From: Candidatus Methanomethylophilaceae archaeon
GTDB lineage: Archaea > Thermoplasmatota > Thermoplasmata > Methanomassiliicoccales > Methanomethylophilaceae
Assembly (NCBI GenBank): GCA_944320495.1
Contig: CALUHR010000013.1
Coordinates: 290,687 to 354,686, forward strand
Length of the DNA stretch: 64,000 bases
Reading direction: 5' to 3'
Shown here: one piece after another, positions 5,752 through 63,334 of the stretch
Position numbering within the stretch: the first letter of the stretch is position 1
How the letters are laid out: each line of letters starts with the position of its first letter
Position numbers and translations under genes: made by a program
The notes under the pieces: model-generated
Database searches by the model: none
Told to the model about the DNA's origin: nothing
Seen by the model: only the letters and a program-made list of their open reading frames with translations

Positions 5752-5871
5752 GGACCTTGAACCGTCGGCCTTCTTTTTAATCTATCCCGTTGCCGGCGCG
5801 GCATCCGCGGGTGCTCGGAACACCGTTTGCAAAGACTTTTTACCAGGGGACTGTTGGGGTTTCCGATTCAG

Positions 5872-8800
5872 ATGATCGAGCGGGTGGACAGGACATACAC
5901 CAAGGAAGAGGTAATGTCGCTCATGGAGCCACTCATCTCCACGTGGTTCGATGAGAGGTTCGGGGATCTCACCATCCCCCAGGCGAAGGCCATCCCCGTC
6001 ATCCACCAGAGGCGCAGCGTGCTCGTATCCTCCCCGACGGGATCGGGCAAGACCCTCACCGCGTTCACCAGCATCATCAATGAGCTCACCCGCTACGCGA
6101 GGGAGGGCACCCTCGAGGAGAGGGTCTACTGCATCTACGTCTCGCCGCTCAAGGCCCTGGCCAACGACGTCAACCGCAACCTGAACGAGCCTCTCGCACA
6201 GATGCGCGAGCTCGCCGCCGAGCGCGGGATGAACGTCCCGGACATACGCGTCGCCGTCCGTTCAGGGGACACGCCCCAGAACGAGAGGCAGAGGATGGTC
6301 CGCCATCCGCCGCACATCCTCATCACCACCCCGGAGAGCCTGGCGCTGATCCTCTCCGCGCCCAAGTTCAGCGAGGCGTTCAAGAGCGTCGAGTGGGTGA
6401 TCCTCGACGAGATCCACGACATCTGCGACTCCAAGAGGGGGGCCTTTCTGTCCCTCACGCTGGAGAGGCTGAGGGAGCACTGCGACAGGGACTTCGTGAG
6501 GATCGGGCTCTCCGCGACCCTGGCCCCCATAGAGTCGATAGCGGCGTACCTGGTCGGGTGCAACCCCGACGGCACGCCCCGCGACGTCGCCCTCATCGAG
6601 TCCGGCTCGAAGAAGCAGCTCGATCTGAAGGTGATCTGCCCCGCGGCAGACATGACCGCGCTGCCCTCGGACATCGTCAACTCGATGATGTACGACATGC
6701 TGAAGGAGCTGATCGACGAGCACGACACGACGCTCGTCTTCACCAACACCCGCTCCGGGGCGGAGAGCGTCGTCTACAAGCTCAAGGAGCGCGGCCTGGA
6801 GAGCGTCGAGGTGCACCACAGCTCCCTCGGCAAGGAGATCAGGCTCGACGTGGAGGAGAGGCTCAAGCACGGTCAGATCAAGTGCGTGGTGTCCTCCACG
6901 TCGCTGGAGCTGGGCATAGACATCGGGTCCGTGGACCTGGTGTGCCAGATCGGCTCCCCGAAGTCGGTCGCCAAAGGGCTCCAGAGGATAGGCAGGAGCG
7001 GGCACAGCTTCGGCAAGGTGGCCAAGGGCCGCCTGCTGGTGTTCGACCCGGACGACCTCGTGGAGTGCGCGGTCATGTGCCGCGCCGCCCACCGCGGGGA
7101 CATAGACCGCGTGGGGATCCCGGAGAACTGCCTGGACGTCCTCTCCCAGACGCTGGTGGGCATGAGCCTGGACCGCAAGTGGGACGTCCGCGAGGCGTAC
7201 GACCTCGTGAGGGGGTCCTACTGCTACCGCACGCTCACCGAGCAGAGCTTCACCGAGGTGCTCCGCTACCTGGGCAGCAAGGACGACTTCGAGGGCGTCT
7301 ACTCCAAGATATGGTACGACCCGGAGGACGGCCAGTTCGGCAAGAAGAAGGGCTCCAGGATGATCTACTTCATGAACCTGGGCACGATCCCCGAGGAGGC
7401 CAACTACCGGGTGGTGACCAACCACGGCTCCACCGTCGGCGAGCTCTCCGAGAAGTTCGTGGAGAGGCTCTCGCCGAGGGACGTATTCGTCCTCGGGGGG
7501 CGCTCGTTCGAGTTCGTCCGCTCCAAGGGCATGACCGCCTACGTCAAGGAGGCCAGCGGGAGGAAGCCCACCGTGCCCTCCTGGGCCGGCGAGATGCTTC
7601 CCCGCAGCTTCGACCTGTCCATGGACATAGCCAGGTTCCGCGGGGAGATGGAGTCCGTCATCGGCATGGACGACCGCGAGGCGGTCGCCGGCATCTCCAG
7701 GGACTTCGACGTGGACGAGGGCTCCGCCAGGAGCATCCTCTCGTACTTCAGGGAGCAGCAGGCCGTCGCGGGCTTCATCCCGGACGCATCCAGGCTCGCC
7801 GTGGAGGAGTACATCGACCCGTCCGGCAACCAGAAGCTGGTGTTCCACTTCCCGTTCGGGCGCAGGGTCAACGATGCCCTGTCCCGCGCCTACGCCTACA
7901 GGCTGACCACGGCCATCGGGGCGAACGTCTCCGTGACGATCTCGGACGACAGCTTCATGCTGGGTCTCCCGAGGAAGGTGGACCCGGCCACCGTCCCCGG
8001 CATGATACGCTCCGCGGAGCTGGAGCCCGTGCTGAGGAAGGCCATCCGCGACTCCGAGCTCTTCAAGCTCAGGTTCAGGCACACCGCCTCCCGGAGCTTC
8101 ATGGTCCTGCGGAACTACATGGGCCGCCCGATATCGGTCAACAGGCAGCAGGTCCGCTCTTCCTATCTGCTGGAGGCGATGGGCGACATGGAGAACGTGC
8201 CCGTTATCGAGGAGACCTACCGCGAGGTACTGGAGGACGACATGGACATCAAGAGCGCCCGCCAGGTGCTGGAGATGATCGAGTCCGGGGAGATGTCCGT
8301 GTCCACGATCAGATACACAGGCACCCCGTCCCCGTTCGCCCACTCCGCGATCCTGTCCGGGTTCTCGGACATCGTCCTCATGGAGGACCGCTCCGCACTG
8401 CTCAGGGAGCTCCACCGGAAGGTCCTGTACCGTGCGCTGGGCGACACCGTGGGCGAGTTCGAGTTCACAGAGGACCAGATAGTCCCGTATTTCGCGCAGA
8501 AGCCCCCGAGGGCCGCGTGCAGGGAGGACATCCCGAAGCTGCTGGCCGTCACCGGTCCGCTGCAGGCCCTGAGGCAGAGGGGCAGGAACGTGTACGCATA
8601 CACGGACGCCGACAAGGCGACGGTGGACGGCTGGATACGCGACCTCATCAACGACGGCACCCTCGGGACCGTGTACCTCGACGAGACCCACGTCATGCTG
8701 GCGTCGGAGATCCCGTACTACGCGGCGGCCACGAGGAAGGACAGGACCCTGAACGAGACGGACAGGGACGTGCTGTCCCGCATCGGGGACCGCACCCCGC

Positions 8801-11250
8801 TCTCCGAGGTCGCGTCCGAGCTGGAGATCAGCGATGACAAGGCCTACCGCTCGTCCAGGAAGCTCGAGTCCATGTACCTGGTCGCCAGGACCGAGATAAC
8901 CGGGAACAACCGCTGGCTCTACTCCCGTGCCGAGTATCCGGAGACGGACCGCTCCGCGGCGATAGACCGCATAGTGCTCCGCTACCTGGAGTGCTTCGCC
9001 CCCGCCACCGTGCAGGAGGTCGCCTACGCGCTCTCGCTGGAGGATTCGGAGGCGAGGAGCTCCCTCGAGTCGCTGTGCGCCGAGGAGGAGGTCGTCAAGG
9101 GACGCTTCCTGATCTCCGAGAGCGACCAGTACATGCTGAAGATAGACCACATGCGCCTGAGGGCCGGCAAGGACAACGTGTTCGACTACGAGTCCGTGGA
9201 GCGCCACCGCCTGACCAAGGGCGAGAGGTTCGGGTCCATCCGCGAGTACTTCGAGTTCTACGGCTCCGCCGGCAGCGAGCTGGACGTGTACCAGAGGGTG
9301 GACGGATTCAGCCTCGCAGAGTGGCAGGGCATGCGCAGGTCCGGGGAGATCCTCCTCGGCAGGTTCGTCAGGGGCAGGGTCAGATTCGTCCTCCGCGAGG
9401 ACGCGGACAGGTTCGCGGCGTTCCGCCACGACGAGACCCAGCCCGGGGACGAGAGGGTGACCGAGGCGATAGGGAGGCTCGGACGTGCGACGTTCAGACA
9501 GCTCATCGCGGCCACCGGCATGGAGAAGGACGCCCTCAAGGAGGCGGTGCTCAGGGTGGACCGCTCGCTCAAGGTCATCCGCGACTTCGACGACAGGGAG
9601 GACTGGGGTACCGAGAACACCTACGCCCTGTACGAGCCCGGGGTTCCGGAGGGGGACCCGGCGCTGGACCTGACCGAGAGGGCGATACGCGCCTACGGCC
9701 CGGTGCCGTCCGGGTCCATGAGGTTCATAACGGGGCTGTCCGCGGAGGAGACCGAGGCGGCCGCCGCCAGGATAGGCGCGGAGACCATCCTGGTGGGCGA
9801 GGGCCAGAGTCCGATGCTCGTGATGCATGACGAGGTCCAGCTCCTGGAGCGCGTGCCCGAGCAGGAGTTCCCGGTCAGGGTGCTGTCGCTCTCCGATCCC
9901 GACATCGGGTCCAAATGGGCCGAGATAACGTCCCGCTACGGGGACAGGCTGGTCTACCCTCTGGCCAGGGGCGACACCGTCGTCGGCGCCCTGGAGATGT
10001 GGGAGATGGCGGGGGTCATAGACATCCGCGGCATGGACATGGACTCGCCGGGGATGCTCCCGGAGGTCCTCGAGGCGGTGGACGTCATCATGGGGTTCTA
10101 CAGGCAGAAGGGCATGGAGATCGTGCGCATCCGCGAGGTCCTCGGCAAGGACGCCGCCGATCTCGACGAGGGGACGGTCGCCGTCCTCGTCTCCCACGGA
10201 TACCACGAGGTCAACGGATTCTACGCCAAGGGAAGGTTCTCCCCGTGGACCGTGCCCGGGGAGCTCCTCACGGCCCTGGCCATCAGGAGGCAGGGCGTCC
10301 CGCGCATGGACCGCCTTCCCGATGCGGCCGCGCTCCTCGAGGCTCGCGGGTACATCCGCGGGGACCAGGAGCTGCCGATCCGCGTGAGGGACCAGTCCAG
10401 CCTGAAGAAGCAGCTAGAGGGCACGGGGGCGGTGAAGACCGCGCTCCTCCCGTCGTACATGGGCTACGCCAGCCCCGCGGAGGCGTCGCTCTACCGCGCG
10501 GCCAAGTCGATCAAGCTCAGCGAGCCGGCGAAGACCGTGCTCGGCATCATACGCAAGTCCGGGGCGGCGTCGAAGAAGAGGCTTGTCATGGACTCCCCCT
10601 ACTCGGACGACCTGACCTCCGACGCCATATCGGAGCTGGTCCGCGGGACCGTCATCGGCCAGGGCGCCGATTCAATGTACGTCGAGATACCGGATTCCGG
10701 CATGGGCCGCCACGAGGCCCTCATGGAAGTAGCCCGCAGGCACTTCGCCGGTTTCGGTTCGTTCTCCGCGGACATCATTTCCGGGTTCCTCGAGTGCAGG
10801 ATGCCCGAGACGCGCGCGGTGCTCGCAGACCTCGAGGACGAGGGGTTCCTCCAGAAGGGGTTCTTCGCCGAGGGCGACCCGACCCTCAGGTGGATGAGGT
10901 CCGAGGACGTCGGCAGGGAGCCCCGCGGGTTCGCCGAGGCTTTTGTCCTTAACACCCAGGACAACCTGAGCCTTTACCTCCGCGAGATGATCAAGGGCCA
11001 CTGCGAGTCGGCCAGGTCCGTGGTGATGCAGGGTCCGGCCATCATCGGCTCGTTCAAGGGCAAGATTTGCCCCTCCGGCGCGAAGGTGGAGGAGTTCGAG
11101 GGCAACGACCGCGCATCCAGGGTGATCAAGGAGACAGCCCAGGCCTGCGGCGTCAGGCTGGAGACCCAGAGGCAGCGCGAGGACGACGACTGGGACGTGT
11201 CGGAGTTCTACACGAAGCTGAACCTGGGGTCGAGGCTGGACCGCCACCGA
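5872..11250 (+). CDS. lhr: Long-form Lhr-family SF2 helicase (about 1790 aa)
   Basis: SSPTGSGKT, DEIH, GLSAT, HHSSL, QRIGRSGH motifs plus a long C-terminal extension; the only CGA is at 11248-11250 (standard-code end 11262). Confidence 0.9.
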
Positions 11251-11302: not shown

Positions 11303-11686
11303 ATGAAGATACCGTGCGAGATCGTCGTCTGGCAGGTCCTGCCGCTCATCCGCAGGGAGCTCGCCAAGGAGCTGGTCCAGGTCCACAGGCTCTCCCAGGC
11401 CGAGGTCGCCAGGAGGTTCGGCGTGACCGATGCGGCCGTCTCGCAGTATCTGACCAAGAAGCGCGGCGGCGAGTACTCGGACAGTCCCAGCTATCCCGAC
11501 TTCATCAAGGCGGTCTCCGATTCCGCGGCCGCGATCGCCAACGGCGCCGAGGTCTCCGAGGAGGTCTGCAGACTGTGCATCGTCGTCAAGCGCTGCGGCC
11601 TGCTGTCGGAGATCTACCACGAGCAGACCGGCGCGTATCCCCCGAAGTGCGCGGGCGCGTACGTCAGGGAGTCCGTCGACTCGCGA
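11303..11686 (+). CDS. HTH transcriptional regulator with Cys-containing C-terminus
   Basis: PCE..V..VLPLIRRELA, SQAEVARRFGVTDAAVSQY HTH; ends CGA-TGA (standard-code end 11689). Confidence 0.8.
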
Positions 11687-12476
11687 TGAACTTGCTGTGA
11701 TAGAGGAACTCCTGAGCGTATCCAGCATAGCGTCCGAACCTCTCGCGTCCGAAGGCGGACACCTTCGCATAGGAGCCGGACACGCCGTACATCTCCTCCA
11801 CAACCTTCTGGATCCTCACGTCGACGGGGAACGCCTCCAGATGCCCGTACCCGAATATGGCTACACAGTCCGCCACCTTGGGGCCCACGCCCTTAATCCC
11901 GATGAGCTCGCGGACGCATCCCTCGTAGTCCAGTTCCGAGATGGCCACGGGGTCGATCTCGCCGTCCTCGACGCGCCGTGCCAGCTCTATGAACCTGCCC
12001 TCCCTGAACCCGAGCCTGCAGGACGGTATCCGCTCCGCGTTGTCCAGGATGTCCTTCGGCGAGGGGAAGGCGTGCCTTCCGCCGAGGTCCCTGCCGCATG
12101 CGTCACAGACCGATTCCACCATCTTGCCGATCCTCGCGACGTTGGCGTTCGTCGCCAGCAGGTACGTGGCGAGACACTCCCACTCGTCCTGCTTCAGGAT
12201 GCGGAGCCCAGGGCAGTGCTCCGACAGGGATGCCACGTATGGGTCCCTCTCGGAGATCTCGCGGACGATGGCGTCTAGGTCGTCCTCGGAGCGGAAGTAG
12301 CGCATCAGGCGCCCCATGTCGGAGCATCCCTCGACCTCCGCTCCGTAGTCGGTCTGCCTCATGCGGACGATGTCGTTGTCGATCACACCCTCCCACCATT
12401 CGCCGGTCCTCCTCCAGCGGTGGGCCTGACCGCATCCGAGGGTCGGGTCCAGCGAGACGTCCATCTCCATCCTCAT
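11676..12476 (-). CDS. ogg: 8-oxoguanine DNA glycosylase (Ogg1/AlkA HhH-GPD family)
   Basis: TLGCGQAHRW, IKGVGPKVADC, FPVDV, YAGYAQEFLY; CGA at 11676-11678 (standard-code end 11664). Confidence 0.9.
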
Positions 12477-17072: not shown

Positions 17073-21504
<4,432 letters not shown>

Positions 21505-21511
21505 CCCCTTC

Positions 21512-21536
21512 GGGCCCGGGCAGGACGCCCGGGCCC
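21512..21536 (+). terminator. GC hairpin after gyrA
   Basis: GGGCCCGGGC/GCCCGGGCCC 10-bp stem, 5-nt loop; no U-tract. Confidence 0.45.
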
Positions 21537-21577
21537 ACAAAAGTCTTATATCCAGGTTGTCGCTAAGGGCGAATCAC

Positions 21578-21653
21578 GCCGTGGTAACTCAGTTGGGAGA
21601 GTGCAAGACTGAAGATCTTGAAGTCGCTGGTTCGAGCCCGGCTCACGGCACCA
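21578..21653 (+). tRNA. tRNA-Phe(GAA), CCA encoded
   Basis: Acceptor GCCGTGG/TCACGGC, anticodon arm CAAGA-CTGAAGA-TCTTG; TTATATC at 21546-21552 upstream. Confidence 0.95.
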
Positions 21654-21689: not shown

Positions 21690-21848
21690 ATGGAGCCAGA
21701 CAGGATCTTCATCGACATCAAGACGTGCGACATGACCCTCTCGCAGGTCATGCTCGAGATCGCGCGCCTTCAGTCGGAGAATCCGGAGTACGAGATCTTC
21801 ATGGACGGGGACCGCTACGCCATCGTGGGGCGCAGGAGGATCGGACGA
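21690..21848 (+). CDS. Small hypothetical protein (52 aa)
   Basis: GGAGG upstream; ends in CGA overlapping the next ATG (CGATG); standard-code end is TAG at 21872. Confidence 0.6.
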
Positions 21849-22390
21849 TGGGACGCGGAAGGATCACGATAGGACTCTACAACTCGTACGACCAGAACTT
21901 CAGGGAGCCCCACAGGCGCGTCATAGCCCGCGCGGGGGACCTCGCGAGGGCGTATGACATGGGCCTCGCACTCTTCGGCTTCCCGATCCCGGAGGATGCC
22001 CGCACGCCCATGCAGATCGCGGAATGGGTGGCAGGGACCACCAGCATCGGCGGCCACGGGAAGAACTTCCTGGAGATGGCGGAGTCCGGCAGGTTCAACT
22101 GCTTCCCATATCCAGGGAAGGGCTTCCCTCCCCAGCTGGGGGAGGTGGTCCTCACCACCTGCAGACCGGACCCGAAGAGGCAACTCTCGCTCGGGCAGGT
22201 GGCCGAGATGGTCGAGGGCGGCCAGAGCATCACGCTCCTGTTCGGCATAGGCCCTCACGGCGTCCCCAAGGACGTCATGAGGATCCCCCGCTACAACCTC
22301 GACATCACCCCCGGGGGCTTCTCGCTGGAGACCGCCACCGCGCTGGGGGCGGTCACCGGAGCGCTGGCATCGAGGCTCGGGATGATCTGA
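21848..22390 (+). CDS. DUF531-family (SPOUT-like) protein
   Basis: TIGLYNSYD..F.EPHRRVIARA, FGIGPHG, SLETATALG. Confidence 0.8.
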   Translation: MGRGRITIGLYNSYDQNFREPHRRVIARAGDLARAYDMGLALFGFPIPEDARTPMQIAEWVAGTTSIGGHGKNFLEMAESGRFNCFPYPGKGFPPQLGEVVLTTCRPDPKRQLSLGQVAEMVEGGQSITLLFGIGPHGVPKDVMRIPRYNLDITPGGFSLETATALGAVTGALASRLGMI

Positions 22391-23272
22391 GGACTCGAGT
22401 CTTTCCAACGAGTAGTCCAGGATCTTCTCCTTGCGGGCTGAGAGGATGGTCATGTAGAACTCCTTCTGGAGGTCCCCTATCTCCTCGCAGCTGTCAATTG
22501 TCCCATAGATGACATCCATGTCGATTCTGGGCAGGATGCGGATCAACGCTTCGTTGCATTCGGGATTCGACAGCGATGAGATGTATTCGAAGTAATTGAT
22601 CTTCTTATTGCCCATCTGGATTGCGGAATTGGGCCAAACGAACACTCTGTTGTCGATTTCACGCGGATCGTCGAGGACCTTCCTGTAGTCCGAGACTCTC
22701 AGCTGCGGGAACAGGCACGATCCGCAGTCGAATATCGGAGCAATCGTCGCAGTCTGTCTGTCATCATCGATGAGGAATCCCCAGTTTCCGTTGTGCCTGT
22801 CGAAGTTGCCGAGGAACGCATCGCAGATGAACATGTCCCAGAAGAACGATTTCAGCACGCTGTGGTCTATCCAATGCTGTTCCATGATGGCCGCATCGAT
22901 ATCATCGAGCTCGGTCCCGTATCCGCTCTCGCTCGTCTGGATGCATGTGTTCTTCAGCGAACCGAAATCCGCGAATCTCAATCCGCCCTCGGTGAAATCC
23001 CTGCAGGCGACGACAGTCTTCGACACCCCGCGATCATCGACGAATCTGCCTAGCAGGGTCTCCTGGGCGTTCACGCCCATCCCGCGAAGGACCTGGCAGC
23101 AGATATGCTCGGATATGCAGCTGTTGGCGTACTCTCCCTCGCCCCTCGATTTGGCCCTGGGAGGGAATTTCAGCATGTACTGGTGACCATCGTATCTGAC
23201 CGAGATCTTTTGGCCGTTCGCGCCGTTGAACGTCTTGAACGGATTGCGCGGGCAATCGGTGAAATCAATCAT
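22370..23272 (-). CDS. HipA-like/CtkA-family Ser/Thr kinase, copy 1 (300 aa)
   Basis: GANGQK, YMLKFPP, NFDRHNGNWG, FDCGSCLFPQ; CGA at 22370-22372 (standard code runs on to 21815). Confidence 0.85.
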
Positions 23273-23714
23273 CTCCGTCACCGATCCCGAGATACTTGGC
23301 ACGCAGGTATGCGGCCTGTCCTTCGCTGATTCTCCCGCAGTGGAGGTTCCAGTTGATGGATCCGTACAGTTCATCGAGGAAGCAATCCAGGTGCAGGCAG
23401 CCGTCTTCACATTCCACCAGGTCTCTGATGGCGGTCTCCAGGTCGGGAGGGAGGTTGACCTCCAGATATGATTGGTCCCTCGGAGTTCCGTTGTTGCGGG
23501 TGATGACGCCGGTCTCCAGGTCCATCACCTCCTCTACGGGCATGTCCAACGCATCGGCCAGGCGACTGACCGTCCTGGCGGAGCAGTTCTGCAGAGATGT
23601 CTTCCCCGTGCATATGTTGGAAAGCGTGGACCACGGTATCCCACTCGTCTTGGCCAACCTGTATCTCGTCAGGCCCTTCTCGGCCATGACGTCCGACAGC
23701 GTCCTCCCGCTCAT
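23265..23714 (-). CDS. XRE-HTH protein with a conserved helical C-domain; putative antitoxin
   Basis: GLTRYRLAKTSGIPWSTLSNI HTH; LPPD..ELYG.IN..LR.KYL domain; ATGATTGA overlap with kinase 1. Confidence 0.8.
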   Translation of the reverse strand: MSGRTLSDVMAEKGLTRYRLAKTSGIPWSTLSNICTGKTSLQNCSARTVSRLADALDMPVEEVMDLETGVITRNNGTPRDQSYLEVNLPPDLETAIRDLVECEDGCLHLDCFLDELYGSINWNLHCGRISEGQAAYLRAKYLGIGDGDD

Positions 23715-23755
23715 GGTGATGTATCATATCACCGATATATCAGTGTGCCGACACA

Positions 23756-24664
23756 TCGTCCCTTGTGCTCGAGCAGGTCCATGGCCCTGTCGATGATGCC
23801 GGTCTTGCGGGCGTAGATCATCGTGTAGTAGAACTGGCGCTGGACCTCGGACAGGCCCGGAGTCTCCGCGATGATCCTGCCAATCTTATCCATGTTGATG
23901 CGGCCACTCATGTAGGCGAGGGCGGCGTCGCACTCCGCATTGTCGATGGAGGTGATGTAATCGTAGTAGTTGATCCTGGCGCGGTTGATCATGAGGGTGG
24001 ACTTGGGGAACAGGCGTACCCTGTCGTCGATCTCGTAGGGTCTGTTCAGCACCTTCTCCATCCTGTCCTCCGTGACCTGCGGGAACAGGCACGAGCCGCA
24101 GTCGTAGACCGGGGCGATGTCCGCGTGCTTGTTGACCTCGTCCACCAGGATCCCCCAGTTGCCGTTGTGGCGGTCGAAGTTGGCCAGGAGGGCGTCCCCG
24201 ATGAACTGCCTCCAGAAGAAGGACCTCAATCTGTCCGGGACGATCAGGCGCTGCTCGTCGATGGCGTTCATGATCGAGTTCAGGTCGGTGTTGTAGCCGT
24301 TGAGGTCGTCGTCGAGGCAGGTGTTCTTCAGATGCGCGAACTCGATGAGGGTCTTCCCGATATCGGCGGCGAAGTCCCTGCAGGCGACCACGTTGCTGGT
24401 GTTTCCGCTCTGGTCGGTGTAGGTGCCCAGCAGGGTCTCCTGGGCGTCCATGCCCATGGACTGGAAGACGTGGCACGCCAGGTACTCGGTGATGTGCGAG
24501 TTGACGTAGCTCAGGTCGGCAATCTTCCCGGGCTTCGGGGGGAACTTGAGCATGTAGCCGTGTCCCTGGTAGAATATGCTAATCTTGTTCCCGTTGGCTC
24601 CGCCGTATGCGCGGTAGTCGTTCCTCTCGCAGTCGCTGAAATCGATCAGGTCCATAGTCGTCAT
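23756..24664 (-). CDS. HipA-like/CtkA-family kinase, copy 2 (302 aa)
   Basis: GANGNK, YMLKFPP, NFDRHNGNWG, YDCGSCLFPQ; CGA at 23756-23758 (standard-code end 23729). Confidence 0.85.
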
Positions 24665-24890
24665 CTTCGTTGAAGAGATACTTCCGCCGGAGTCTGGCCG
24701 CGGCCTCGGGGGACAGGGCTCCGCCCCATTGGTTGGCGTTTATCGCGCCGTACAGCTCCCCCCAGAGGCAGTCCAGGAGGGGCGATCCGCTCTTCAGGCC
24801 CTCGACGTACTCCTTGATGGCGAGGGCCACATCCGGGGGCAGGTCCCGTTCGGGACCCGGGGGCTCATCCCCGCGCTCAGTAGTGGTCAT
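24642..24890 (-). CDS. HTH-less homolog of the putative antitoxin C-domain (82 aa)
   Basis: LPPDVALAI..LLDCLWGELYGAIN..LRRKYL aligns with 23265-23714; CGA at 24642-24644 (standard-code end 24579). Confidence 0.7.
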
Positions 24891-25893
24891 ACAGCACGTT
24901 CTCTGTCTCCAGAAGGACGCCTTCGCCCTTCTCCACGCGTCCGACGATCTTGGCGTTGCGGTTCTCCGCGGCGATGGCCTCGGCCTCGTCGGCCGGGGCG
25001 ATGATTGTGAATCCCATGCTCATGTTGAGGGTCTGGTAGATCTCCTCGGTCGTGATGTCGCCCAGCTCCTGCAGGGCGGTGAACACGGGTGCGGGTTCGA
25101 TGGGGTCGTCGATGACGTATCTCAGTCCCTTCCTCATCCTGAGGATGTTCCTGAGTCCTCCGCCGGTGATGTCCACCAGTCCGTGGACCTCGTGCGAGCG
25201 GGTGATGCCGAGGACCTGCCTGACGTAGATCTCGGTGGGGGTGAGGAGCTCCTCGCCGATCGTCTTGGAAAGACCCTTGACGTGGTCCGTGAGGGCGATG
25301 CCGTTGGCCTCGACGACCTTGCGGGCGAGCGTGAGCCCGTTCGAGTGGATGCCCGAGGATTCCAGTCCGATGATGAGGTCGCCCTCGGCGCAGGTCTCGC
25401 CTGTGATGATCCTGTCCTTCTCCACGTATCCCATGCAGGTGCCGGACAGGTCCACGCCGTTGATGATCTCCGGGAGGACGGCGATCTCCCCGCCGACGAT
25501 CTCCATGTCGGAGAGCTCCGCGCCCTTCTGCAGGCCCTTGCCGATCTCCTCGGTGATCTCCGGCTTGGGCTCGTCGATCGCGATGTAGTCCACGAAGGAG
25601 GTGGGCTCCGCATTGACGCAGATGGTGTCGTTGACGTTCATGGCGATGCAGTCGATGCCGACGGTGTCCCATTTGTTCAGGGCCTCGGCGATGAGGAGCT
25701 TGGATCCCACGCCGTCCGTGGCCATCGTGATGTACCTGTCACCGAAGTCCACGAGGCTCGCGAAGAGTCCCGGCAGGCGGACCGCCTGTCCGATGCCTGA
25801 CCTCTTGTAGCTGACCTCGTCCACGAGGGCTCTGATCGCCTCGGATTTCTGGTCGATGTTCACTCCGGATTTGGCGTAGGTCCATCCGCTCAT
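24877..25893 (-). CDS. purM: Phosphoribosylformylglycinamidine cyclo-ligase
   Basis: TYAKSGV, TDGVGSK, SSGIHSNG, DITGGG, LNMSMG. Confidence 0.95.
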   Translation of the reverse strand: MSGWTYAKSGVNIDQKSEAIRALVDEVSYKRSGIGQAVRLPGLFASLVDFGDRYITMATDGVGSKLLIAEALNKWDTVGIDCIAMNVNDTICVNAEPTSFVDYIAIDEPKPEITEEIGKGLQKGAELSDMEIVGGEIAVLPEIINGVDLSGTCMGYVEKDRIITGETCAEGDLIIGLESSGIHSNGLTLARKVVEANGIALTDHVKGLSKTIGEELLTPTEIYVRQVLGITRSHEVHGLVDITGGGLRNILRMRKGLRYVIDDPIEPAPVFTALQELGDITTEEIYQTLNMSMGFTIIAPADEAEAIAAENRNAKIVGRVEKGEGVLLETENVLYDHY

Positions 25894-25944
25894 CTGGCTA
25901 TCCTCGGCCTTAAGAACGGAACACATGGTTAATTAGGGTTGTTC

Positions 25945-27333
25945 TCGGAGGGCCTCGCCGCCGTGCCTCATGAGCTCGAACATGCCGATCCCCGTGACCT
26001 TCCTGAACTCCCTGGTGGCGAGCCACATCATTAGGCCCCCTCCGAAGACCTCCGCCACGAGCAGGCTGTAGAATATTGCGTCCATGGACACGGTGCACGA
26101 GACCATCAGGAACGCCACGATGACCAGATTCCTGATGAGCGACGACACCATGGAGAGCTGGGCGAGGCGCAGCGACTCCAGGATAGACGATCCGATGTCG
26201 ATGAGGCCCATGAACGGTATGAGCACGGCGTATATCCTCAGGACATGGGCGAACTGGGGGCGGAGCTCCGCCATGGACTCGGACTGCGTGAGCGGCACCA
26301 TGGCCCAGTCGGCGAACACGAACAGGACCGCCGCGATGCCCACCATGGCGACCATCGTTATCCTCAGAGAGTAGGCGCAGGCGTCGGCCGCCCTCCTGTG
26401 GTCGTCCTGACCCATCGCGGCCGAGACTATGGGGATGATCGACGACCCGGTGGCCTGGGAGACCACCTCGGCCAGGGACACGAACCTCCAGGGGATGTTG
26501 TAGAGGGCGGCCCCCACGGAACCTCCGCAGATGATGACGAAGATTCTCTGGACCATGGACATGAAGCTTATGAGAGTGGTCTCGACGGTCTTGGGCACCC
26601 CCACGAACATCACGTCCCTGATCATGGCGAGGTCGAACCTGAACCCCCTGAACGACATCCTCAGGTACACCGATCCGCGGGCGAACCACCACAGTCCCAC
26701 GAGCATCGACGCGACGGTGGATATCGAAGTGGCCCAGCCGGCCCCCGCGATGCCCATGTCCAGGACGAACATGAACAGCGGGTCCAGGACGACGTTCATC
26801 ACAGCGGCGACCAGGAGCATGACCGTGCTGCGCCTGGCCGCGCCCTCGGCCCTGAGTATGCCCGCTATCACGCCGTCCAGCACCAGGGGCAGGGTGCAGA
26901 CCACGATGGGCACGATGTAGTCGAGGCACAGGTCCCGGATGTCATCCGCCCCCATCATCGAGATGGACGGGCCCAGCAGGAGGTACATGACCGGCGTGAG
27001 CGCGACCGCCACGACCGCGCTGACGGCCATGGTCTGCGACACGAGGGCGTCGGCCCTCGCCTTGTCGCCCCTGCCGAGGCATCTGGCAATCGACGTCGAC
27101 GCCCCCACGCCTATGCCGGTCCCGATGCCAGACACTATCCAGTACACCGGGGATATGGTGGAGGCCGCGGAGCTCGGGTCCACCCCGAGGAGGGAGCACC
27201 ACGCGGTGTCCGCGAAGCTGTTGATCTGCACCACGAGGAACGACACTATGAGCGGACCGGACATGGCGAGGACGGCCCTCCGGGGGTCGCCGAGCATGAC
27301 CTTCAGGTCCCTCGTGACCTCTGCCTCGCTCAT
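25945..27333 (-). CDS. MATE-family efflux transporter
   Basis: About 12 TM segments, MNVVLDPLFM..MGIAGAGWAT; CGA at 25945-25947 (standard-code end 25933). Confidence 0.9.
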
Positions 27334-28663
27334 GCGACCTCTTCCCGTACTTCCCGATGCGCTCCAGCCACAGCCTCATGCCGCGCTCGTAGCCGTTGTC
27401 CGAGGGCTCGTAGAACCTCCTGTCCACGAGCTCGTCGGGCAGGTACTGCTGGTCGGTGTAGTGGTTGGGGAAGTCGTGGGGATAGAGGTACCCGACCCCG
27501 TGGCCCAGGTCCTTGGCGTTGCCGTAGTGCGCGTCCTTCAGATGGGCGGGGACGCCGCTGGTGGGCTCGGTCCTCACGGACTCCATCGCGGACGTTATGG
27601 CGTTGATCGCCGAGTTGCTCTTGGGGGCGCACGCCACGTACGCCGCCGCCTGGGAGAGTATGATCTGGGACTCCGGCATCCCGATGCGCTCCACGGCCTC
27701 GGATGCCGACACGGCGAGGACCAGCGCCTGCGGGTCGGCGTTGCCGACGTCCTCCGCGGCGCAGATCATGATCCTGCGGGCGATGAACCGGACGTCCTCG
27801 CCGGCGTACAGCATCCTCGCCAGATAGTACACCGCCGCGTCCGGGTCCGATCCGCGCATGCTCTTGATGAACGCGGATATCGTGTCGTAGTGGTTGTCCC
27901 CGTCGCGGTCGTAGTTGAGGATCCTGCGCTGGATGCACTCGGAGGCGACCTCCGCGGTTATGTGGACCCTGCCGTCCTCCCCCGGGAGGGTGGTCAGGGC
28001 CCCCAGCTCCAGCGCGTTCAGCGCGGCGCGGGCGTCCCCGTTGGCCATGTCGGCAAGGAACGAGACGGCGTCGTCGTCCGCGTCGACGTTCAGCCTGCCC
28101 AGCCCCCTGTCGGGGTCGGACAGCGCCCTCCTAAGAAGCTTCTCGAGGTCCTTCTGGCACAGCGGTTTCAGCTCGAATATGCGGGAGCGGGAGACCAGCG
28201 CGCGGTTGACCTCGAAGTAGGGGTTCTCCGTGGTGGCGCCGATGAGGGTCACGGTGCCGTCCTCCACGAACGGGAGCAGATAGTCCTGCTGCGCCTTGTT
28301 GAAGCGATGGATCTCGTCCACGAAGAGGATGGTCCTGCGCTCCTCCATGCCGAGGGCGTCCCTCGCCTTCTGCACGGCGTCCTCCATGTCCTTCTTGCCC
28401 GCGGTGGTGGCGTTAATCTGGACGAACCTGGAGTGGGTGGTGTTGGCGATGACCTGCGCGATCGTCGTCTTCCCGGTGCCCGGCGGGCCGTACAGGATGA
28501 GCGAGCCGATCCTGTCGGCGCGGATGGCCCTGGACAGAAGCCTGTCGGGGCCTATGATGTGCTCCTGTCCGACCACCTCGTCGAGCGTGCGCGGCCTCAT
28601 GCGGCTGGCGAGCGGGGCCTCCCGCTCCAGGACGCCCCTGCGGTTGTATTCGAACAGGTCCAT
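27326..28663 (-). CDS. rarA: Replication-associated recombination protein A (445 aa)
   Basis: PLASRMRP, GPPGTGKTT, VDEIHRFNK, SAFIKSMRGSDPDAA; CGA at 27326-27328 (standard code runs to 26942). Confidence 0.93.
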
Positions 28664-28705
28664 GTACGGTCATCGCCGATGGGTCGATATATCTGTGATG
28701 GGCGG

Positions 28706-29704
28706 TCGCTCCCAGCCGTCGCAGGGGGACCTTCTGCCCTCCAGCTCCCCGCCCGCCCTCAGGACGACCTGGCGCACCTCGTCGAGGGTCCCGCAGCGCA
28801 TCGTGACCGCCCTGCGGTACTCGCGGCTGTATCTGAACCCGGACAGGAACTTCGCCGCCACGCCGCGCATCTTCGCGAGGGCGACCTCCTCCCCGAACTC
28901 GGCCTCAGTCATGTCGATGAGGCGGACGCACCATTCGGCCTGCTGCGCGGGAGTCGGGTCCGGCGGAACCTCCCCTCCGGCGAGGGCCTCGGCGACCTGG
29001 GTCACGAGGAAGGGATTCCCCACGCCTCCGCGGGAGACCATGACTGCTCCTGCTCCCGTGATGCGCATCGCCTCCACGGCGTCCTCCGCCGTGCGGATGT
29101 CCCCGGAGACGATCAGCGGCACCGGGAGCTCCTCCCCGTAGCCCGCCATGTCCCCGTGCCTGGCGCATCCCGCGTAGCGCTGGTCCGCGGTGCGCGTGTG
29201 CACGGTGACGGCGTCCGCCCCCGCCCTCACGCACTCATCGACCACCCTGCGGAAGTTCACGGTGTGCGCGTCCAGGCCGAGGCGGGTCTTGGCGGTCACC
29301 GGCACGCCGACTGAGTCGACCACCCTGCGCACGATCCTCCCGCACAGCTCCGGATCGGACATCAGCGACGATCCCGCGCCGGTCCTCATGACCTTGCCAG
29401 CGGGGCACCCCATGTTCACGTCCACGAACGCGAGGTCCGGCTCCAGTTCGAGCGCGACCGCCGCTCCCTCGGCGACGGTGTCCGGGTCGGAGCCGAACAC
29501 CTGCACGCCGGTGACCTGCCCCGGTACTGCCCTCACGTAGCCGGTCGACTCCTCGGGATTGTGGACCAGCCCGGGGGCGGAGACCATCTCCGTCACCGCC
29601 ACGCGGGCTCCGAACCCGAGCATGAACTCCCTGTAGCTCCTGGAGGTGTATCCGGACATGGGGCCGAGAACGATCCCCCTTCCCGCATCGAGCCAATCCG
29701 ACAT
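28706..29704 (-). CDS. dus: tRNA-dihydrouridine synthase family protein
   Basis: GPMSG, DVNMGCP, GAGSSL, TVHTRT, SGDI, VMVSRG; CGA at 28706-28708 (standard-code end 28670); start uncertain. Confidence 0.88.
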
Positions 29705-29783
29705 CGGAAGGCCGATGCGGGGCCCGTCTAAATCGTTTCCCGCGGGCGACATCCATATATGGTCCGACACCTAACCTCGGCTC

Positions 29784-38615: not shown

Positions 38616-39272
38616 TCGGACGTTGACCTTCACGTCCACCCTGTCGCCGTCCTCGAGGCTGAGGGTCCTGCGGAGGTGGTACTGGCAGATGATCTCGATG
38701 ATGTCCGCGTAGTGGGACCTCTCGGGGACCACGATGGCGCAGTCGATGTTGCGTATCCTCGCCTTGTAGGCGACGACGTTGCCGAAGCTGCGGCCGTTGT
38801 CCGTGAATCCGTTAATCGGCACCCCGGCCACGCTCTTGATGACGTCGAGCTTCCCGACGTCGTCCGGGTCCACATGGATGTTCAGGGTGCCCTCGAAGGG
38901 CTCGAACCCGAGTTTGGACTTGAACTGATCCAGATAGCCGGGCTGGCAGATGTAGTAGCCGCCCTCGCCCATCCCCGACTGCACCGCGCCGTGGATGGTG
39001 ATGTGGTCCGTGAGCTCGAAGATCCTGCGGTACTCGTTGTACTCCTTGCGCAGGTCGTCTATCCCCTTCTGGGTCAGCTTGATGCGCTGCCTGCGGGCGC
39101 CCAGGTCCCTGACGATGTACTTCTCCTCCAGGAGCTCCAGAATCCTCTTGGAGGCAGATTGCTGGCTCATCTCGAGCGCTTCGCCGAGCTCCCTCGAGGA
39201 GATGGCGATGTAATCGTCCATGGCTCCAAGCAGGGCGAGCTTCCTGAGTGCGAAGGAGTACTTCTCGTCCAT
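38616..39272 (-). CDS. ribK: CTP-dependent riboflavin kinase with N-terminal wHTH (218 aa)
   Basis: SQQSASKR HTH, SGMGEGGYY, PFEGTLN, PERSHY, LEDGDRV; CGA at 38616-38618 (standard code runs to 37488). Confidence 0.92.
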
Positions 39273-39341
39273 GAGCGGACGGATGCCATGATACGATAAA
39301 AACAATGGGGGAGGGGCTCGTCGCCCCTCGTTGGAACGGTT

Positions 39342-50290: not shown

Positions 50291-50764
50291 TCGGTCCGTT
50301 ATTGGTGTTGAGCACTCTGTCGTGACGTTCAGGTCGAACACGATGCGCGGATCCAGGCGATTCTGGATGATGTCATCTATGAGATCGAACATGCCGTTGT
50401 AATCGTCCGCCGACTCGTCGGTGACGCCCCAGTCGCACTTCTCCATGCAGAACATCAGGAAATCCAGGAAGTCATAGGCCGCCTCGTCTCCGCCCAGTTT
50501 GATGAAGCTCTCCAGATCCCGGCAGAACTTCTCGGCCATGCGTTTGCGGAACATATCTCTCTCGCATCCGCAAAGGCACTGGTTGATGCGGATGCGGGTC
50601 TCCTCCCTGTCCAGCAGGGACCCCTCCTTCGCGAGCTTCTCCAGTGTCTCCATCACGGTGTCGTAGCCCAGCTTCTCGGCGAGGCAGATTACGATCCTCT
50701 TGAACATGCAGTGGTTCATTGTGTTCGTGATATCCTCAATAACAAGTGCATCACAGTAATCCAT
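50291..50764 (-). CDS. Hypothetical Cys-rich protein (157 aa)
   Basis: Clean ORF with an AT-rich upstream region; CGA at 50291-50293 (standard-code TAG at 50282). Confidence 0.55.
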
Positions 50765-62788: not shown

Positions 62789-63334
62789 TCGGACCCAGAT
62801 CGCGTGGCGGCGGCGCATGTCGTCCTCGGAGATCTCCTCGCGGGACATTATCTCGCTGACGATGCCGTCGAACAGCAGCAGCGCGGAGTCCTCGAAGACG
62901 GTCCCCAGGGGGGCCACCCTGTGCAGTCCCTCGCCCTCGGGAACGCTCATGACCAGGGACACGTCGGAGACGCGGGTCAGCGGGCTTCCGCTGGTGCCCG
63001 TTATGCAGAATATCTCGGACCCTATGCGACGGGCGATTTCCGCTGTCTGCACAACCGACGACGTCCTGCCGGTGTAGGATATGAGGAGGGTGAGGTCCTC
63101 CTTCCCGATTATGGGGGTGGTCATCTCGCCCACGAAATGCACGTCGAGCCCGAGCTGGACGAGACGCACCGCGAACATCTGGCCCACCAGCCCGGAGCGG
63201 CCGGACCCGTAGACGAAGACCTTGCGATGGCTCAGGATCCCGGAGACTAGCTCCTCCCTGGCGTCGGCGTCGACCGAGCGGACTGCGGTCCTGCAGGTGT
63301 CCAGCAGGGTGTCCAGGTCGTCCAACTCACTCAC
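62789..63334 (-). CDS. hxlB: 6-phospho-3-hexuloisomerase-like SIS protein (181 aa)
   Basis: VYGSGRSGLV, VGEMTTP, PLGTVFE, MRRRHAIWV then CGA at 62789-62791 (standard code runs to 62084). Confidence 0.88.

What the first reader, a model, noticed from the sequence alone, without database searches (positions are those of the whole stretch)
23265..24644. Paralog pair swaps TGA for CGA at the homologous position
Seen: the HTH partner ends GAT-TGA over kinase 1 codons ATT-GAT (I-D-F). The HTH-less partner has GAT-CGA over kinase 2 codons ATC-GAT (I-D-F). Both kinases end at CGA at nearly equal lengths (300 and 302 aa), and the kinase 2 CGA precedes a TATA-like GATATATC upstream of the next gene. 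Inference: TGA and CGA are interchangeable, and this probably acquired island has already adapted to the host code.
Basis: partly seen in the sequence, partly recalled or inferred. Interest (0 to 1): 0.62.

Follow-up and report, generated by a model that had tools for sequence, protein, structure and literature searches.

The report
CGA replaces TGA as stop codon
Two tandem copies of a small-protein/kinase gene pair in a chicken-gut methanogen end their genes with either TGA or CGA at the same position, and genome-wide evidence shows that the arginine codon CGA works here as a stop codon, a change not established in any free-living organism.

Summary
On the minus strand lie two paralogous partner/kinase pairs. 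The HTH partner ends GAT-TGA (23267-23265) over kinase 1 codons ATT-GAT. The HTH-less partner has GAT-CGA (24644-24642) over kinase 2 codons ATC-GAT. The first in-frame CGA of the kinases is codon 301 and codon 303.

The reading that TGA and CGA are interchangeable stops is supported:
- In 15 orthologous partner genes of the genus, only TGA (7) or CGA (8) occupies this position.
- The nearest relative has TGA exactly where kinase 2 has CGA.
- Bacterial homologues (292-316 aa) show no conservation beyond it.
- In 899 confident ORFs genome-wide, coding periodicity stops exactly at CGA in 150 (17%).
- Outgroup orthologues end at the CGA.
- CGA is almost absent inside genes but common out of frame.

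Conserved in-frame CGAs remain in the only aRF1 gene and at a GmhA-GmhB junction. tRNA-Arg(UCG) is kept with an atypical anticodon arm. Together these suggest a leaky, context-dependent stop.

The mechanism is inferred, not shown. I derived this before consulting earlier notes. This scan had already reached the same reading on other windows of this genome. I found no publication describing it.

The parts
24645..24890 (-). HTH-less partner gene (82 aa if it ends at CGA). It shares the C-terminal partner domain with the HTH partner.
   Evidence: Translation. It is 49% identical to the HTH partner's C-terminal domain and 40% identical to a 68-aa ORF upstream of a HipA-domain gene on a Campylobacter fetus plasmid. 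Under table 11 it would run on 21 codons inside kinase 2.
24642..24644 (-). CGA that ends the HTH-less partner. It overlaps kinase 2 codons ATC-GAT.
   Evidence: Orthologues have TGA (3) or CGA (8) at this codon. With CGA, the table-11 frame runs on 8-306 codons through the kinase gene. An RNA-library contig covering this site shows no C-to-U change.
23759..24664 (-). Kinase 2, a short HipA_C / CtkA-family kinase (302 aa to the CGA). An alternative start is ATG 24655.
   Evidence: Pfam HipA_C 30.2 bits, just under the 30.5 cut-off. PADLOC PDC-M03A E 1e-23. Invariant NFDRHNGNWG motif in the alignment. 2538 homologues found.
23756..23758 (-). CGA that ends kinase 2 (codon 303).
   Evidence: The G018 orthologue has TGA at exactly this codon and the sequence after it diverges as a spacer. 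The table-11 stop TGA lies 9 codons on, at 23729-23731.
23734..23741 (.). Palindromic GATATATC, a TATA-like element 20-27 nt upstream of the HTH partner's ATG.
   Evidence: Read directly. CTGATATATC is conserved between G000 and G018 while the surrounding spacer diverges. Promoter function was not tested.
23268..23714 (-). HTH partner gene (149 aa): an N-terminal Cro/C1-type HTH plus the C-terminal partner domain.
   Evidence: Pfam HTH_26 E 9.8e-11, HTH_31 and HTH_3. Translation.
23265..23267 (-). TGA that ends the HTH partner. It overlaps kinase 1 codons ATT-GAT (ATGATTGA overlap).
   Evidence: All four orthologues of this partner type end in TGA here.
22373..23272 (-). Kinase 1, a short HipA_C / CtkA-family kinase (300 aa to the CGA).
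   Evidence: Pfam HipA_C 33.5 bits, above the cut-off. It is 48% identical to kinase 2. GC3 is 0.76.
22370..22372 (-). CGA that ends kinase 1 (codon 301). It lies 18-21 nt inside the 3' end of the convergent DUF531 gene.
   Evidence: Orthologues in G077 and G157 end in TAA a few residues earlier; G018 and G130 have CGA. The table-11 run-on of 185 codons is the stop-free antisense frame of DUF531.
21848..22390 (+). Convergent DUF531 gene. It marks the end of the inserted module.
   Evidence: Pfam DUF531 E 3.3e-62, full length. It ends in TGA at 22388-22390.
24877..25926 (-). Upstream flanking gene (349 aa). By its sequence it looks like PurM / AIR synthase; this is my reading and was not searched. 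It ends in TGA.
   Evidence: ORF lists. Its TGA at 24877-24879 overlaps the start region of the HTH-less partner.

Best explanation
In this archaeon, CGA ends translation. The organism belongs to Methanomassiliicoccales, family Methanomethylophilaceae, in the genus that holds Candidatus Methanoprimaticola.

The locus holds two tandem bicistronic modules. Each has a small partner protein whose stop codon overlaps the first codons of a short HipA/CtkA-type kinase. At the overlap, the third base of the kinase's Ile codon is the first base of the partner's stop. ATT gives TGA and ATC gives CGA. Under this genome's strong pressure for G/C at third positions, ATT to ATC is favoured in the kinase frame. 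It is tolerated because CGA still stops the partner frame. The two kinases likewise end at CGA.

Shown:
- Coding ends at CGA.
- CGA alternates with canonical stops among orthologues.
- CGA is excluded from gene interiors.

Inferred:
- The single aRF1 recognises CGA, most efficiently when T follows.
- It competes with a weakened tRNA-Arg(UCG).
- CGA is therefore a leaky stop that is read as Arg at a few conserved sites, namely the aRF1 gene itself and the GmhA-GmhB junction.
For: At the locus:
- T and C sit in the same alignment column at the two junctions.
- 15 orthologous partner genes carry only TGA (7) or CGA (8) at this codon. With CGA, the table-11 frame runs 8-306 codons through the kinase gene.
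- Kinase 2 ends in TGA in G018 and CGA in G000 at the same codon. Kinase 1 orthologues end in TAA or CGA.
- Bacterial homologues are 292-316 aa with no conservation beyond ..ILDYS.
- The four genes hold 0 in-frame CGA in 833 codons against 77 out of frame.

Genome-wide (899 ORFs with GC3 of 0.8 or more):
- The relative-position histogram of CGA is 482,146,17,11,2,4,3,19,44,207.
- GC at codon positions 1/2/3 goes from 0.61/0.44/0.89 to 0.59/0.65/0.63 exactly after the CGA. No other rare codon shows this.
- Terminators are TGA 690, CGA 150, TAG 32 and TAA 27.
- Against outgroup orthologues, the tail excess is +19.5 codons measured to the canonical stop but 0 measured to the CGA (n=20). ORFs without CGA give 0 (n=87).

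Leaky-stop model:
- aRF1 keeps CGA at the conserved Arg 78 in 16 of 17 genus genomes. All 80 family aRF1 genes carry at least one CGA, at recurring N-domain sites.
- The GmhA-GmhB junction codon is CGA in 29 of 30 genomes and AGA in one.
- The base after CGA is T in 56% of terminators, but C or G at the readthrough sites.
- tRNA(UCG) is retained, with a 31-39 mismatch or C33.
Against: - No protein-level or ribosome-level data were available.
- A cognate tRNA-Arg(UCG) gene is retained in every genome I examined fully, unlike the classic loss-of-tRNA route.
- aRF1 keeps NIKS, YxCxxxF and GT motifs. I cannot show that any substitution (for example Met at the position of human Arg68) changes codon recognition.
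- A few interior CGAs exist, for example in a flavodoxin-like gene.
- The share of CGA-terminated genes varies widely within the genus, from 0 of 44 to 7 of 19 sampled ORFs.
- The RNA evidence is from assembled contigs of metatranscriptome libraries only. It does not cover kinase 1 or the HTH partner.
Confidence: 0.85

Rival explanations
1. CGA is an ordinary, very rare Arg codon. The TGA-to-CGA changes are stop-loss mutations, and the proteins really carry the C-terminal extensions up to the next canonical stop.
For: tRNA-Arg(UCG) genes are present. At aRF1 residue 78 and at the GmhA-GmhB junction, CGA must be read as a sense codon.
Against: - Only CGA shows the break in coding signal. Other one-step neighbours of stop codons (AGA, GGA, TCA, CAA) do not.
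- 17% of genes would carry unselected tails of up to hundreds of residues, antisense to or out of frame with other genes.
- Outgroup orthologues end at the CGA.
- At orthologous stops only TGA and CGA alternate, with no drift to other codons.
Confidence: 0.04
2. CGA is converted to UGA in the mRNA by C-to-U editing, so the code itself is standard.
For: A single C-to-U change would make a canonical stop. Terminal CGAs have a biased context (T follows in 56%), which an editing enzyme could also use.
Against: - CGA trinucleotides are abundant out of frame, about 30 per 1000 positions. NCG codons are followed by A in 24% of cases. Editing would therefore need to know the reading frame.
- RNA-library contigs from three metatranscriptome runs cover the CGA sites at 11248, 24644 and 28708 and read C. 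This is weak evidence: contigs are consensus sequences and DNA carry-over is possible.
- The conserved in-frame CGAs in aRF1 would have to escape editing.
Confidence: 0.04
3. CGA is effectively unassigned. The ribosome stalls there for lack of an efficient decoder, and the chain is released by a rescue or stalling pathway rather than by aRF1 reading CGA as a stop.
For: - In this genus the tRNA(UCG) anticodon arm is atypical: a 31-39 mismatch in 43 genomes and C33 in G008.
Against: - A codon that ends 17% of genes, including conserved housekeeping genes, needs efficient hydrolytic release.
- From my own knowledge, the Pelota-type rescue factor lacks the GGQ hydrolysis motif. I inferred that the genome's only weak second aRF1-like match is such a factor; I did not verify it.
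- The strong preference for T after terminal CGA resembles a stop-signal context.
- The conserved CGA inside aRF1 makes most sense if aRF1 itself acts on CGA.
Confidence: 0.1

Closest known systems
Sense-to-stop reassignments in organelles (NCBI tables 2, 22 and 23: AGA/AGG in vertebrate mitochondria, TCA in Scenedesmus and TTA in Thraustochytrium mitochondria; from my own knowledge)
   Same: A sense codon disappears from gene interiors and appears at gene ends where relatives have canonical stops.
   Different: - This is the chromosome of a free-living (gut) archaeon of about 1.8 Mb with high GC content.
- The cognate tRNA gene is retained.
- The codon is still read as Arg at a few conserved sites.
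- It is not a listed NCBI table.
Speculated CGA stop in two hydrothermal-vent archaeal MAGs with CGG-to-Trp (Melnykov 2026, bioRxiv 10.64898/2026.04.02.715157)
   Same: CGA is absent from recognisable domains in an archaeon, and the author raises the possibility that it is a stop.
   Different: - Those are different organisms: about 50% GC, no tRNA(UCG), and CGG reassigned.
- The preprint could not test stops.
- Here CGG stays in gene interiors, gene ends at CGA are shown by periodicity and homology, and tRNA(UCG) is present.
Release-factor autoregulation by an in-frame stop (bacterial prfB +1 frameshift at UGA; from my own knowledge)
   Same: The gene for the factor that reads a stop codon carries that codon in frame at a conserved site. 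Low factor activity would therefore raise its own synthesis.
   Different: - Here the event would be readthrough by tRNA-Arg at CGA, not a frameshift.
- The factor is archaeal aRF1.
- Regulation is inferred from codon conservation only.
HipA/CtkA-family kinase modules (HipBA-type toxin-antitoxin pairs; PADLOC candidate defence system PDC-M03)
   Same: - A HipA_C kinase core with the DRHxxN motif.
- An upstream small partner whose stop overlaps the kinase start.
- An HTH on one partner.
- Patchy, plasmid-associated distribution.
   Different: - The kinases are short (about 300 aa) and lack the HipA N-terminal subdomain.
- The partner domain matches no Pfam or NCBIfam model.
- One partner has no HTH.
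- Toxicity or defence activity is untested.
Short anticodon-stem tRNA plus mutant eRF1 in Blastocrithidia (from my own knowledge; 4-bp anticodon stems in bacteria: PMC13092985, title and abstract only)
   Same: A code change is accompanied by a tRNA with a 4-bp anticodon stem and by substitutions in the release-factor N domain.
   Different: - There, a stop becomes sense and the short stem strengthens near-cognate reading.
- Here, a sense codon becomes a stop and the cognate tRNA carries the 31-39 mismatch. I infer that this weakens decoding.

Membership tests
Sense-to-stop codon reassignment | The codon is absent from conserved sense positions inside genes. | tested here: met
   About 4 CGA per tenth of ORF length in mid-ORF bins, against 207 in the last tenth. 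Of 21 apparent interior CGAs, I counted three as true interior: aRF1, a flavodoxin-like gene and the GmhA-GmhB junction. In the same-genus genome G008, 0 CGA in 19,014 homology-confirmed codons.
Sense-to-stop codon reassignment | The codon stands at gene ends where homologues have canonical stops. | tested here: met
   Outgroup orthologues end at the CGA: median offset 0 against +19.5 to the canonical stop. At this locus, TGA/TAA alternate with CGA at the same codon.
Sense-to-stop codon reassignment | The coding signal stops at the codon. | tested here: met
   GC3 is 0.87 at codon -1 and about 0.6 from codon +1 onward, in 150 ORFs. No such break occurs at CGG, CGT, AGA, TCA, CTA, GTA, CAA, ACA, CCA or AAA.
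Sense-to-stop codon reassignment | The cognate tRNA is lost. | tested here: not met
   tRNA-Arg(UCG) is present in G000, G008, G070, G041 and G036. A pattern search found it in 43 of 62 genus genomes. In this genus its anticodon arm is atypical: a 31-39 mismatch or C33.
Sense-to-stop codon reassignment | The release factor recognises the codon. | not testable with these tools
   There is one aRF1 gene. Clade-specific substitutions lie near NIKS, for example Met at the position aligned with human Arg68. Their effect is unknown.
Release-factor autoregulation through its own stop codon | A conserved in-frame copy of the codon lies in the release-factor gene, with synonymous sites constrained. | tested here: met
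   CGA at Arg 78 in 16 of 17 genus genomes, in the context GCT-CGA-CTN-AAA despite GC3 of about 0.95. All 80 family aRF1 genes hold at least one CGA, at sites 11, 25, 27, 50, 78 or 123.
Release-factor autoregulation through its own stop codon | Factor level controls readthrough of the site. | not testable with these tools
   This needs reporter or in vitro assays.
HipA_C / CtkA-family kinase (PF07804) | A profile match and the catalytic DRHxxN motif. | tested here: met
   Kinase 1 scores 33.5 bits (cut-off 30.5). Kinase 2 scores 30.2 bits, just under. D158, R159, H160 and N163 are invariant in the alignment with bacterial homologues that sources name HipA domain-containing or CtkA family proteins.
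HipBA-type toxin-antitoxin system | A full-length HipA with the N-terminal subdomain, plus an HTH antitoxin encoded upstream. | tested here: not met
   The kinases are about 300 aa and give no match to a HipA N-terminal (Couple_hipA) model. Only one of the two partners has an HTH. Against the YjjJ model they score 20-27 bits, with a cut-off of 401.
PADLOC candidate defence system PDC-M03 | A match to the PDC-M03A profile over its whole length. | tested here: met
   E 1.8e-23 and 1.1e-23, covering profile positions 1-275 of 280. The other components of that candidate system were not examined.

The most novel reading that the evidence does not exclude
CGA is a dual-meaning codon across much of the Methanomethylophilaceae. 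By default it is a stop read by aRF1. At a handful of conserved, context-marked sites it is read as Arg by a deliberately weakened tRNA-Arg(UCG). One such site sits in the aRF1 gene itself and would give feedback control of termination. Another sits at the GmhA-GmhB junction and would set the ratio of a single enzyme to a fusion enzyme. This would be the first sense-to-stop code change in a free-living cell. It would be caught at different stages in different genera: CGA merely avoided in the genome that appears to be M. alvus, and used to end 17% or more of genes in this species.
Probability: 0.55. Interest if true: 0.95.

Novelty: categorically new. Interest (0 to 1): 0.9.

Why it matters
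- **Code evolution.** No sense-to-stop reassignment is established outside organelles. No alternative code was considered established for Archaea as late as 2024 (bioRxiv 10.1101/2024.09.30.615893, abstract). A lineage that shows graded stages would let models of code evolution be tested on living gut methanogens. The stages are: the codon avoided; the codon used as a stop; the tRNA kept but altered; and the release-factor gene carrying the codon.
- **Annotation.** Standard annotation mis-extends about one gene in six here. Kinase 1 becomes 485 aa instead of 300 aa, and partner genes run through the kinase gene. This creates false overlaps and false protein tails in public databases; homologues of 414 and 449 aa appear.
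- **This locus.** It is an unusually clean natural experiment. The T/C difference is synonymous in one frame and is the stop codon in the other.

Tried and rejected
- A classifier of real against shadow ORFs based on amino-acid composition was too lenient and gave misleading interior CGA counts. I replaced it with homology-confirmed regions.
- Homology counts among close relatives still include some shadow ORFs, for example 30 CGA in G006. Those numbers are therefore rough.
- BLAST of the 80-nt tRNA(UCG) against five relatives found nothing.
- Two tRNA pattern searches used a wrong anticodon-to-T-loop spacing and even missed the positive control. I discard them.
- The corrected pattern missed the G008 tRNA(UCG), which a full Rfam-plus-ARAGORN inventory then found. 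The 19 genus genomes without a pattern hit are therefore not evidence of loss.
- RNA-library contigs gave no cover over kinase 1 and the HTH partner. Nothing can be said about their expression.
I read the bacterial gene neighbourhood from one plasmid record instead.
- I considered and rejected generic stop loss, assembly error (the same pattern occurs in many independent assemblies) and a DNA-level motif effect (CGA is common out of frame).
- I did not test the TATA-like element functionally. The sigma-70 scanner does not apply to archaea.
Full report
**The locus**

The finding's coordinates run from the last base of a TGA (23265) to the first base of a CGA (24644), both on the minus strand. 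Four genes lie head to tail there:
- an HTH-less partner, starting at 24890;
- kinase 2, starting at 24664;
- an HTH partner, 23714..23268, ending in TGA at 23267-23265;
- kinase 1, starting at 23272.

Both kinases match Pfam HipA_C, and the HTH partner matches Cro/C1-type HTH models. The kinases are 48% identical over 294 residues. The two partners share a C-terminal domain that is 49% identical.

- GAT-TGA lies over ATT-GAT in pair 1.
- GAT-CGA lies over ATC-GAT in pair 2.
- T and C fall in the same column of an ungapped alignment.
- The first in-frame CGA is codon 301 of kinase 1 (22372-22370) and codon 303 of kinase 2 (23758-23756).

Under table 11, kinase 1 would be 485 aa. It would run antisense through the whole convergent DUF531 gene (21848-22390, Pfam E 3e-62). 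That antisense frame has no stop codons because third-position GC is about 0.9.

I searched the kinase in 174 genomes of the family. 23 have it, and some carry the same tandem arrangement. The terminal codons are informative:
- The closest relative, G018, ends kinase 2 with ..LLEHKG-TGA exactly where this genome has CGA.
- After that codon the two sequences diverge as a spacer, except for a conserved CTGATATATC.
- Other kinase 2 orthologues end in TGA or TAA within one or two residues. G004 has CGA followed by a long meaningless tail.
- Kinase 1 orthologues end in TAA (G077, G157) or CGA (G018, G130).

For the partner genes, the codon overlapping the kinase's Ile-Asp is one of two things:
- TGA in seven genes: all four HTH-type partners and three of the HTH-less type.
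- CGA in eight genes, all of the HTH-less type.

With CGA, the table-11 frame would run 8 to 306 codons through the kinase gene in another frame.

Standard-code homologues agree:
- Homologues from Clostridia (55-59% identical, named HipA domain-containing or CtkA family by their sources) are 292-316 aa. They show no conserved column beyond ..ILDYS.
- A 68-aa ORF upstream of a HipA-domain gene on a Campylobacter fetus plasmid is 40% identical to the partner domain. It ends two residues after the shared KYL.

**Genome-wide evidence**

The window lies in a 1.77-Mb assembly of 14 contigs with about 62% GC. I took 899 stop-to-stop ORFs of at least 150 codons with the genome's coding signature (GC3 of 0.8 or more).
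- In-frame CGA is nearly absent from the middle of ORFs and piles up at both ends. Counts by tenths of ORF length are 482,146,17,11,2,4,3,19,44,207. The 5' excess is expected from upstream non-coding sequence; the 3' excess is not.
- In the 150 ORFs with a CGA in their second half, GC at codon positions 1/2/3 changes from 0.61/0.44/0.89 before the CGA to 0.59/0.65/0.63 after it. The change is sharp, from codon -1 to codon +1. Ten other rare codons show no such break.
- Counting CGA as an end gives TGA 690, CGA 150 (17%), TAG 32 and TAA 27.
- Against orthologues from three relatives that use CGA normally, ORFs with a CGA exceed the orthologue's C-terminus by a median 19.5 codons measured to the canonical stop, but by 0 measured to the CGA (n=20). 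ORFs without CGA give 0 (n=87).
- The avoidance is specific to the reading frame. CGA trinucleotides occur about 30 times per 1000 out-of-frame positions. NCG codons are followed by A in 24% of cases. The four genes of this locus hold 0 in-frame and 77 out-of-frame CGAs.

**Exceptions, and what they suggest**

Of 21 CGAs with coding signal on both sides, nearly all are gene ends followed by a same-frame neighbour or an antisense shadow. Three are truly interior.

1. *The only aRF1 gene.*
   - CGA encodes the conserved Arg 78, which aligns with human eRF1 Arg81.
   - The codon is CGA in 16 of 17 genomes of the genus.
   - Its context GCT-CGA-CTN-AAA is conserved at synonymous sites.
   - All 80 aRF1 genes retrieved from the family carry at least one CGA, almost always at one of six N-domain Arg sites.
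2. *The GmhA-GmhB junction.*
   - It is CGA in 29 of 30 genus genomes and AGA (Arg) in one.
   - No start codon precedes the phosphatase's DxD motif.
3. *A flavodoxin-like gene.* I did not follow this up.

Terminal CGAs are followed by T in 56% of cases, against 29% for TGA. The aRF1 site is followed by C and the junction site by G.

tRNA-Arg(UCG) is retained but unusual in this genus:
- The four upper pairs of the anticodon stem covary, which argues that the tRNA is functional.
- Positions 31 and 39 are mismatched (C.A, A.A or U.C) in all 43 copies found by pattern.
- The complete genome G008 instead has C at position 33.
- The copies in G070, G041 and G036 have a normal stem.

My reading is that CGA is a leaky stop read by aRF1 in competition with a weak tRNA. 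The aRF1 site would then give negative feedback, as the prfB frameshift site does in bacteria. This reading is inferred.

**Distribution**

aRF1 loci with record titles place the organism in Methanomassiliicoccales, family Methanomethylophilaceae. The same genus holds Candidatus Methanoprimaticola sp. MG2, and there is a 100% match in an uncultured chicken-gut assembly.

CGA counts in homology-confirmed coding sequence:

| Genome | CGA / codons |
|---|---|
| G008 (same genus) | 0 / 19,014 |
| G070 | 0 / 9,866 |
| three other genera of the family | 3-11 |
| G039 (deeper family member) | 48 / 16,604 |
| G025 (another family) | 35 / 11,842 |

From memory, the 1,666,795-bp contig of G070 equals M. 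alvus Mx1201.

The share of genes ending at CGA varies within the genus: 0 of 44 in G008, 1 of 61 in G004, 2 of 45 in G077, 3 of 29 in MG2 and 7 of 19 in G010. These samples are small and noisy.

The CGA-poor clade shares Met at the aRF1 position that aligns with human Arg68. G039, most other families of the order and two solved archaeal aRF1 sequences have Arg there; one further family has Gln and one family member (G044) Lys. This is a correlation only.

**Rivals**

- *Generic stop loss* is excluded by the specificity for CGA, the number of genes affected, the unselected tails and the strict TGA/CGA alternation.
- *C-to-U editing* would need frame awareness. RNA-library contigs from three chicken-gut metatranscriptomes read C at the three terminal CGAs they cover, including the partner's CGA at 24644. 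This is weak evidence, because contigs are consensus sequences and may include DNA.
- *Stalling at an unassigned codon followed by rescue* remains possible. It fits poorly with a codon that ends one gene in six and with the CGA kept in aRF1.

**Function of the locus**

- The kinases match the PADLOC candidate defence profile PDC-M03A at E 1e-23.
- They carry the invariant DRHxxN motif.
- They are patchy in the family.
- They have relatives on bacterial plasmids next to a small partner ORF and a Fic gene.

I read the locus as two copies of a partner/kinase module of the toxin-antitoxin or defence kind. In pair 1 the partner also carries an autoregulatory HTH. It is not a canonical HipBA system: the kinases lack the HipA N-terminal subdomain. 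Activity is untested.

Pair 2 has host-like codon use (GC3 0.93) and pair 1 less so (0.76). This fits ATC/CGA in pair 2 and ATT/TGA in pair 1.

**Literature and earlier notes**

Within the held library I found no description of CGA as a stop in this lineage.
- One 2026 preprint raises the possibility for two unrelated vent archaea but could not test it.
- A 2024 preprint states that no alternative code had been established for Archaea.

After reaching my reading, I consulted the scan's notes. Follow-up agents on other windows of this same genome reached the same conclusion, including the aRF1 CGA and the gene junction. Those are AI notes, not independent evidence. I tested each point here myself.

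Noticed in passing
G000:C2:85936-87165 (-) = L001:437-1666 (-); outside the window: The only aRF1 gene carries one in-frame CGA at the conserved Arg 78. The codon is conserved as CGA, in a conserved synonymous context, across the genus. All 80 family aRF1 genes hold at least one CGA at recurring N-domain sites.
   Followed up: yes
G000:C13:193639-194700 (-) = L003; outside the window: GmhA (SIS isomerase) and GmhB (HAD phosphatase) are joined in one frame by a single CGA, with no start codon for GmhB. The junction codon is CGA in 29 of 30 genus genomes and AGA in one. In six other genomes the two are separate genes, with TAA ending GmhA.
   Followed up: yes
G000:C8:55277-55840 (+) = L002; outside the window: A flavodoxin-like gene has an interior CGA (..GKTI-CGA-PFCTNEGSG..) with coding signal on both sides. 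It could be a third readthrough site or a broken gene.
   Followed up: no
window 5827-11250 (+), 11303-11686 (+), 11676-12476 (-), 25945-27333 (-), 27326-28663 (-), 28706-29770 (-), 38616-39305 (-), 50291-50764 (-), 62789-63334 (-): These further genes in the window have coding signal that ends at CGA. Their table-11 run-ons range from 1 to 376 codons. Three consecutive minus-strand genes at 25945-29770 all end in CGA.
   Followed up: partly
G000:C13:413317-413390 (+) = L004:218-291: tRNA-Arg(UCG) has an A31.A39 mismatch, which leaves a 4-bp anticodon stem. The mismatch at 31-39 is conserved across the genus while the other four pairs covary. The complete genome G008 instead has C33 in the loop.
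   Followed up: yes
G000:C9:67854-68522 (-) = L264: A PylS C-terminal domain gene scores above the NCBIfam cut-off, so the organism has the pyrrolysine system. TAG ends only about 3.6% of confident ORFs. Whether TAG is a stop at all here was not examined.
   Followed up: no
window 21578-21653 (+): tRNA-Phe(GAA) lies next to the DUF531 gene and about 740 bp from the end of the kinase module. It is a possible integration landmark, but no attachment repeats were looked for.
   Followed up: no
whole genome: Codon use is extreme: GC3 is about 0.95 in gyrA and gyrB, and Arg is encoded almost only by AGG and CGC. As a result, the position-aligned antisense frame of most genes is free of stop codons and gives long shadow ORFs, for example 18994-21540 (-) opposite gyrA.
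   Followed up: partly
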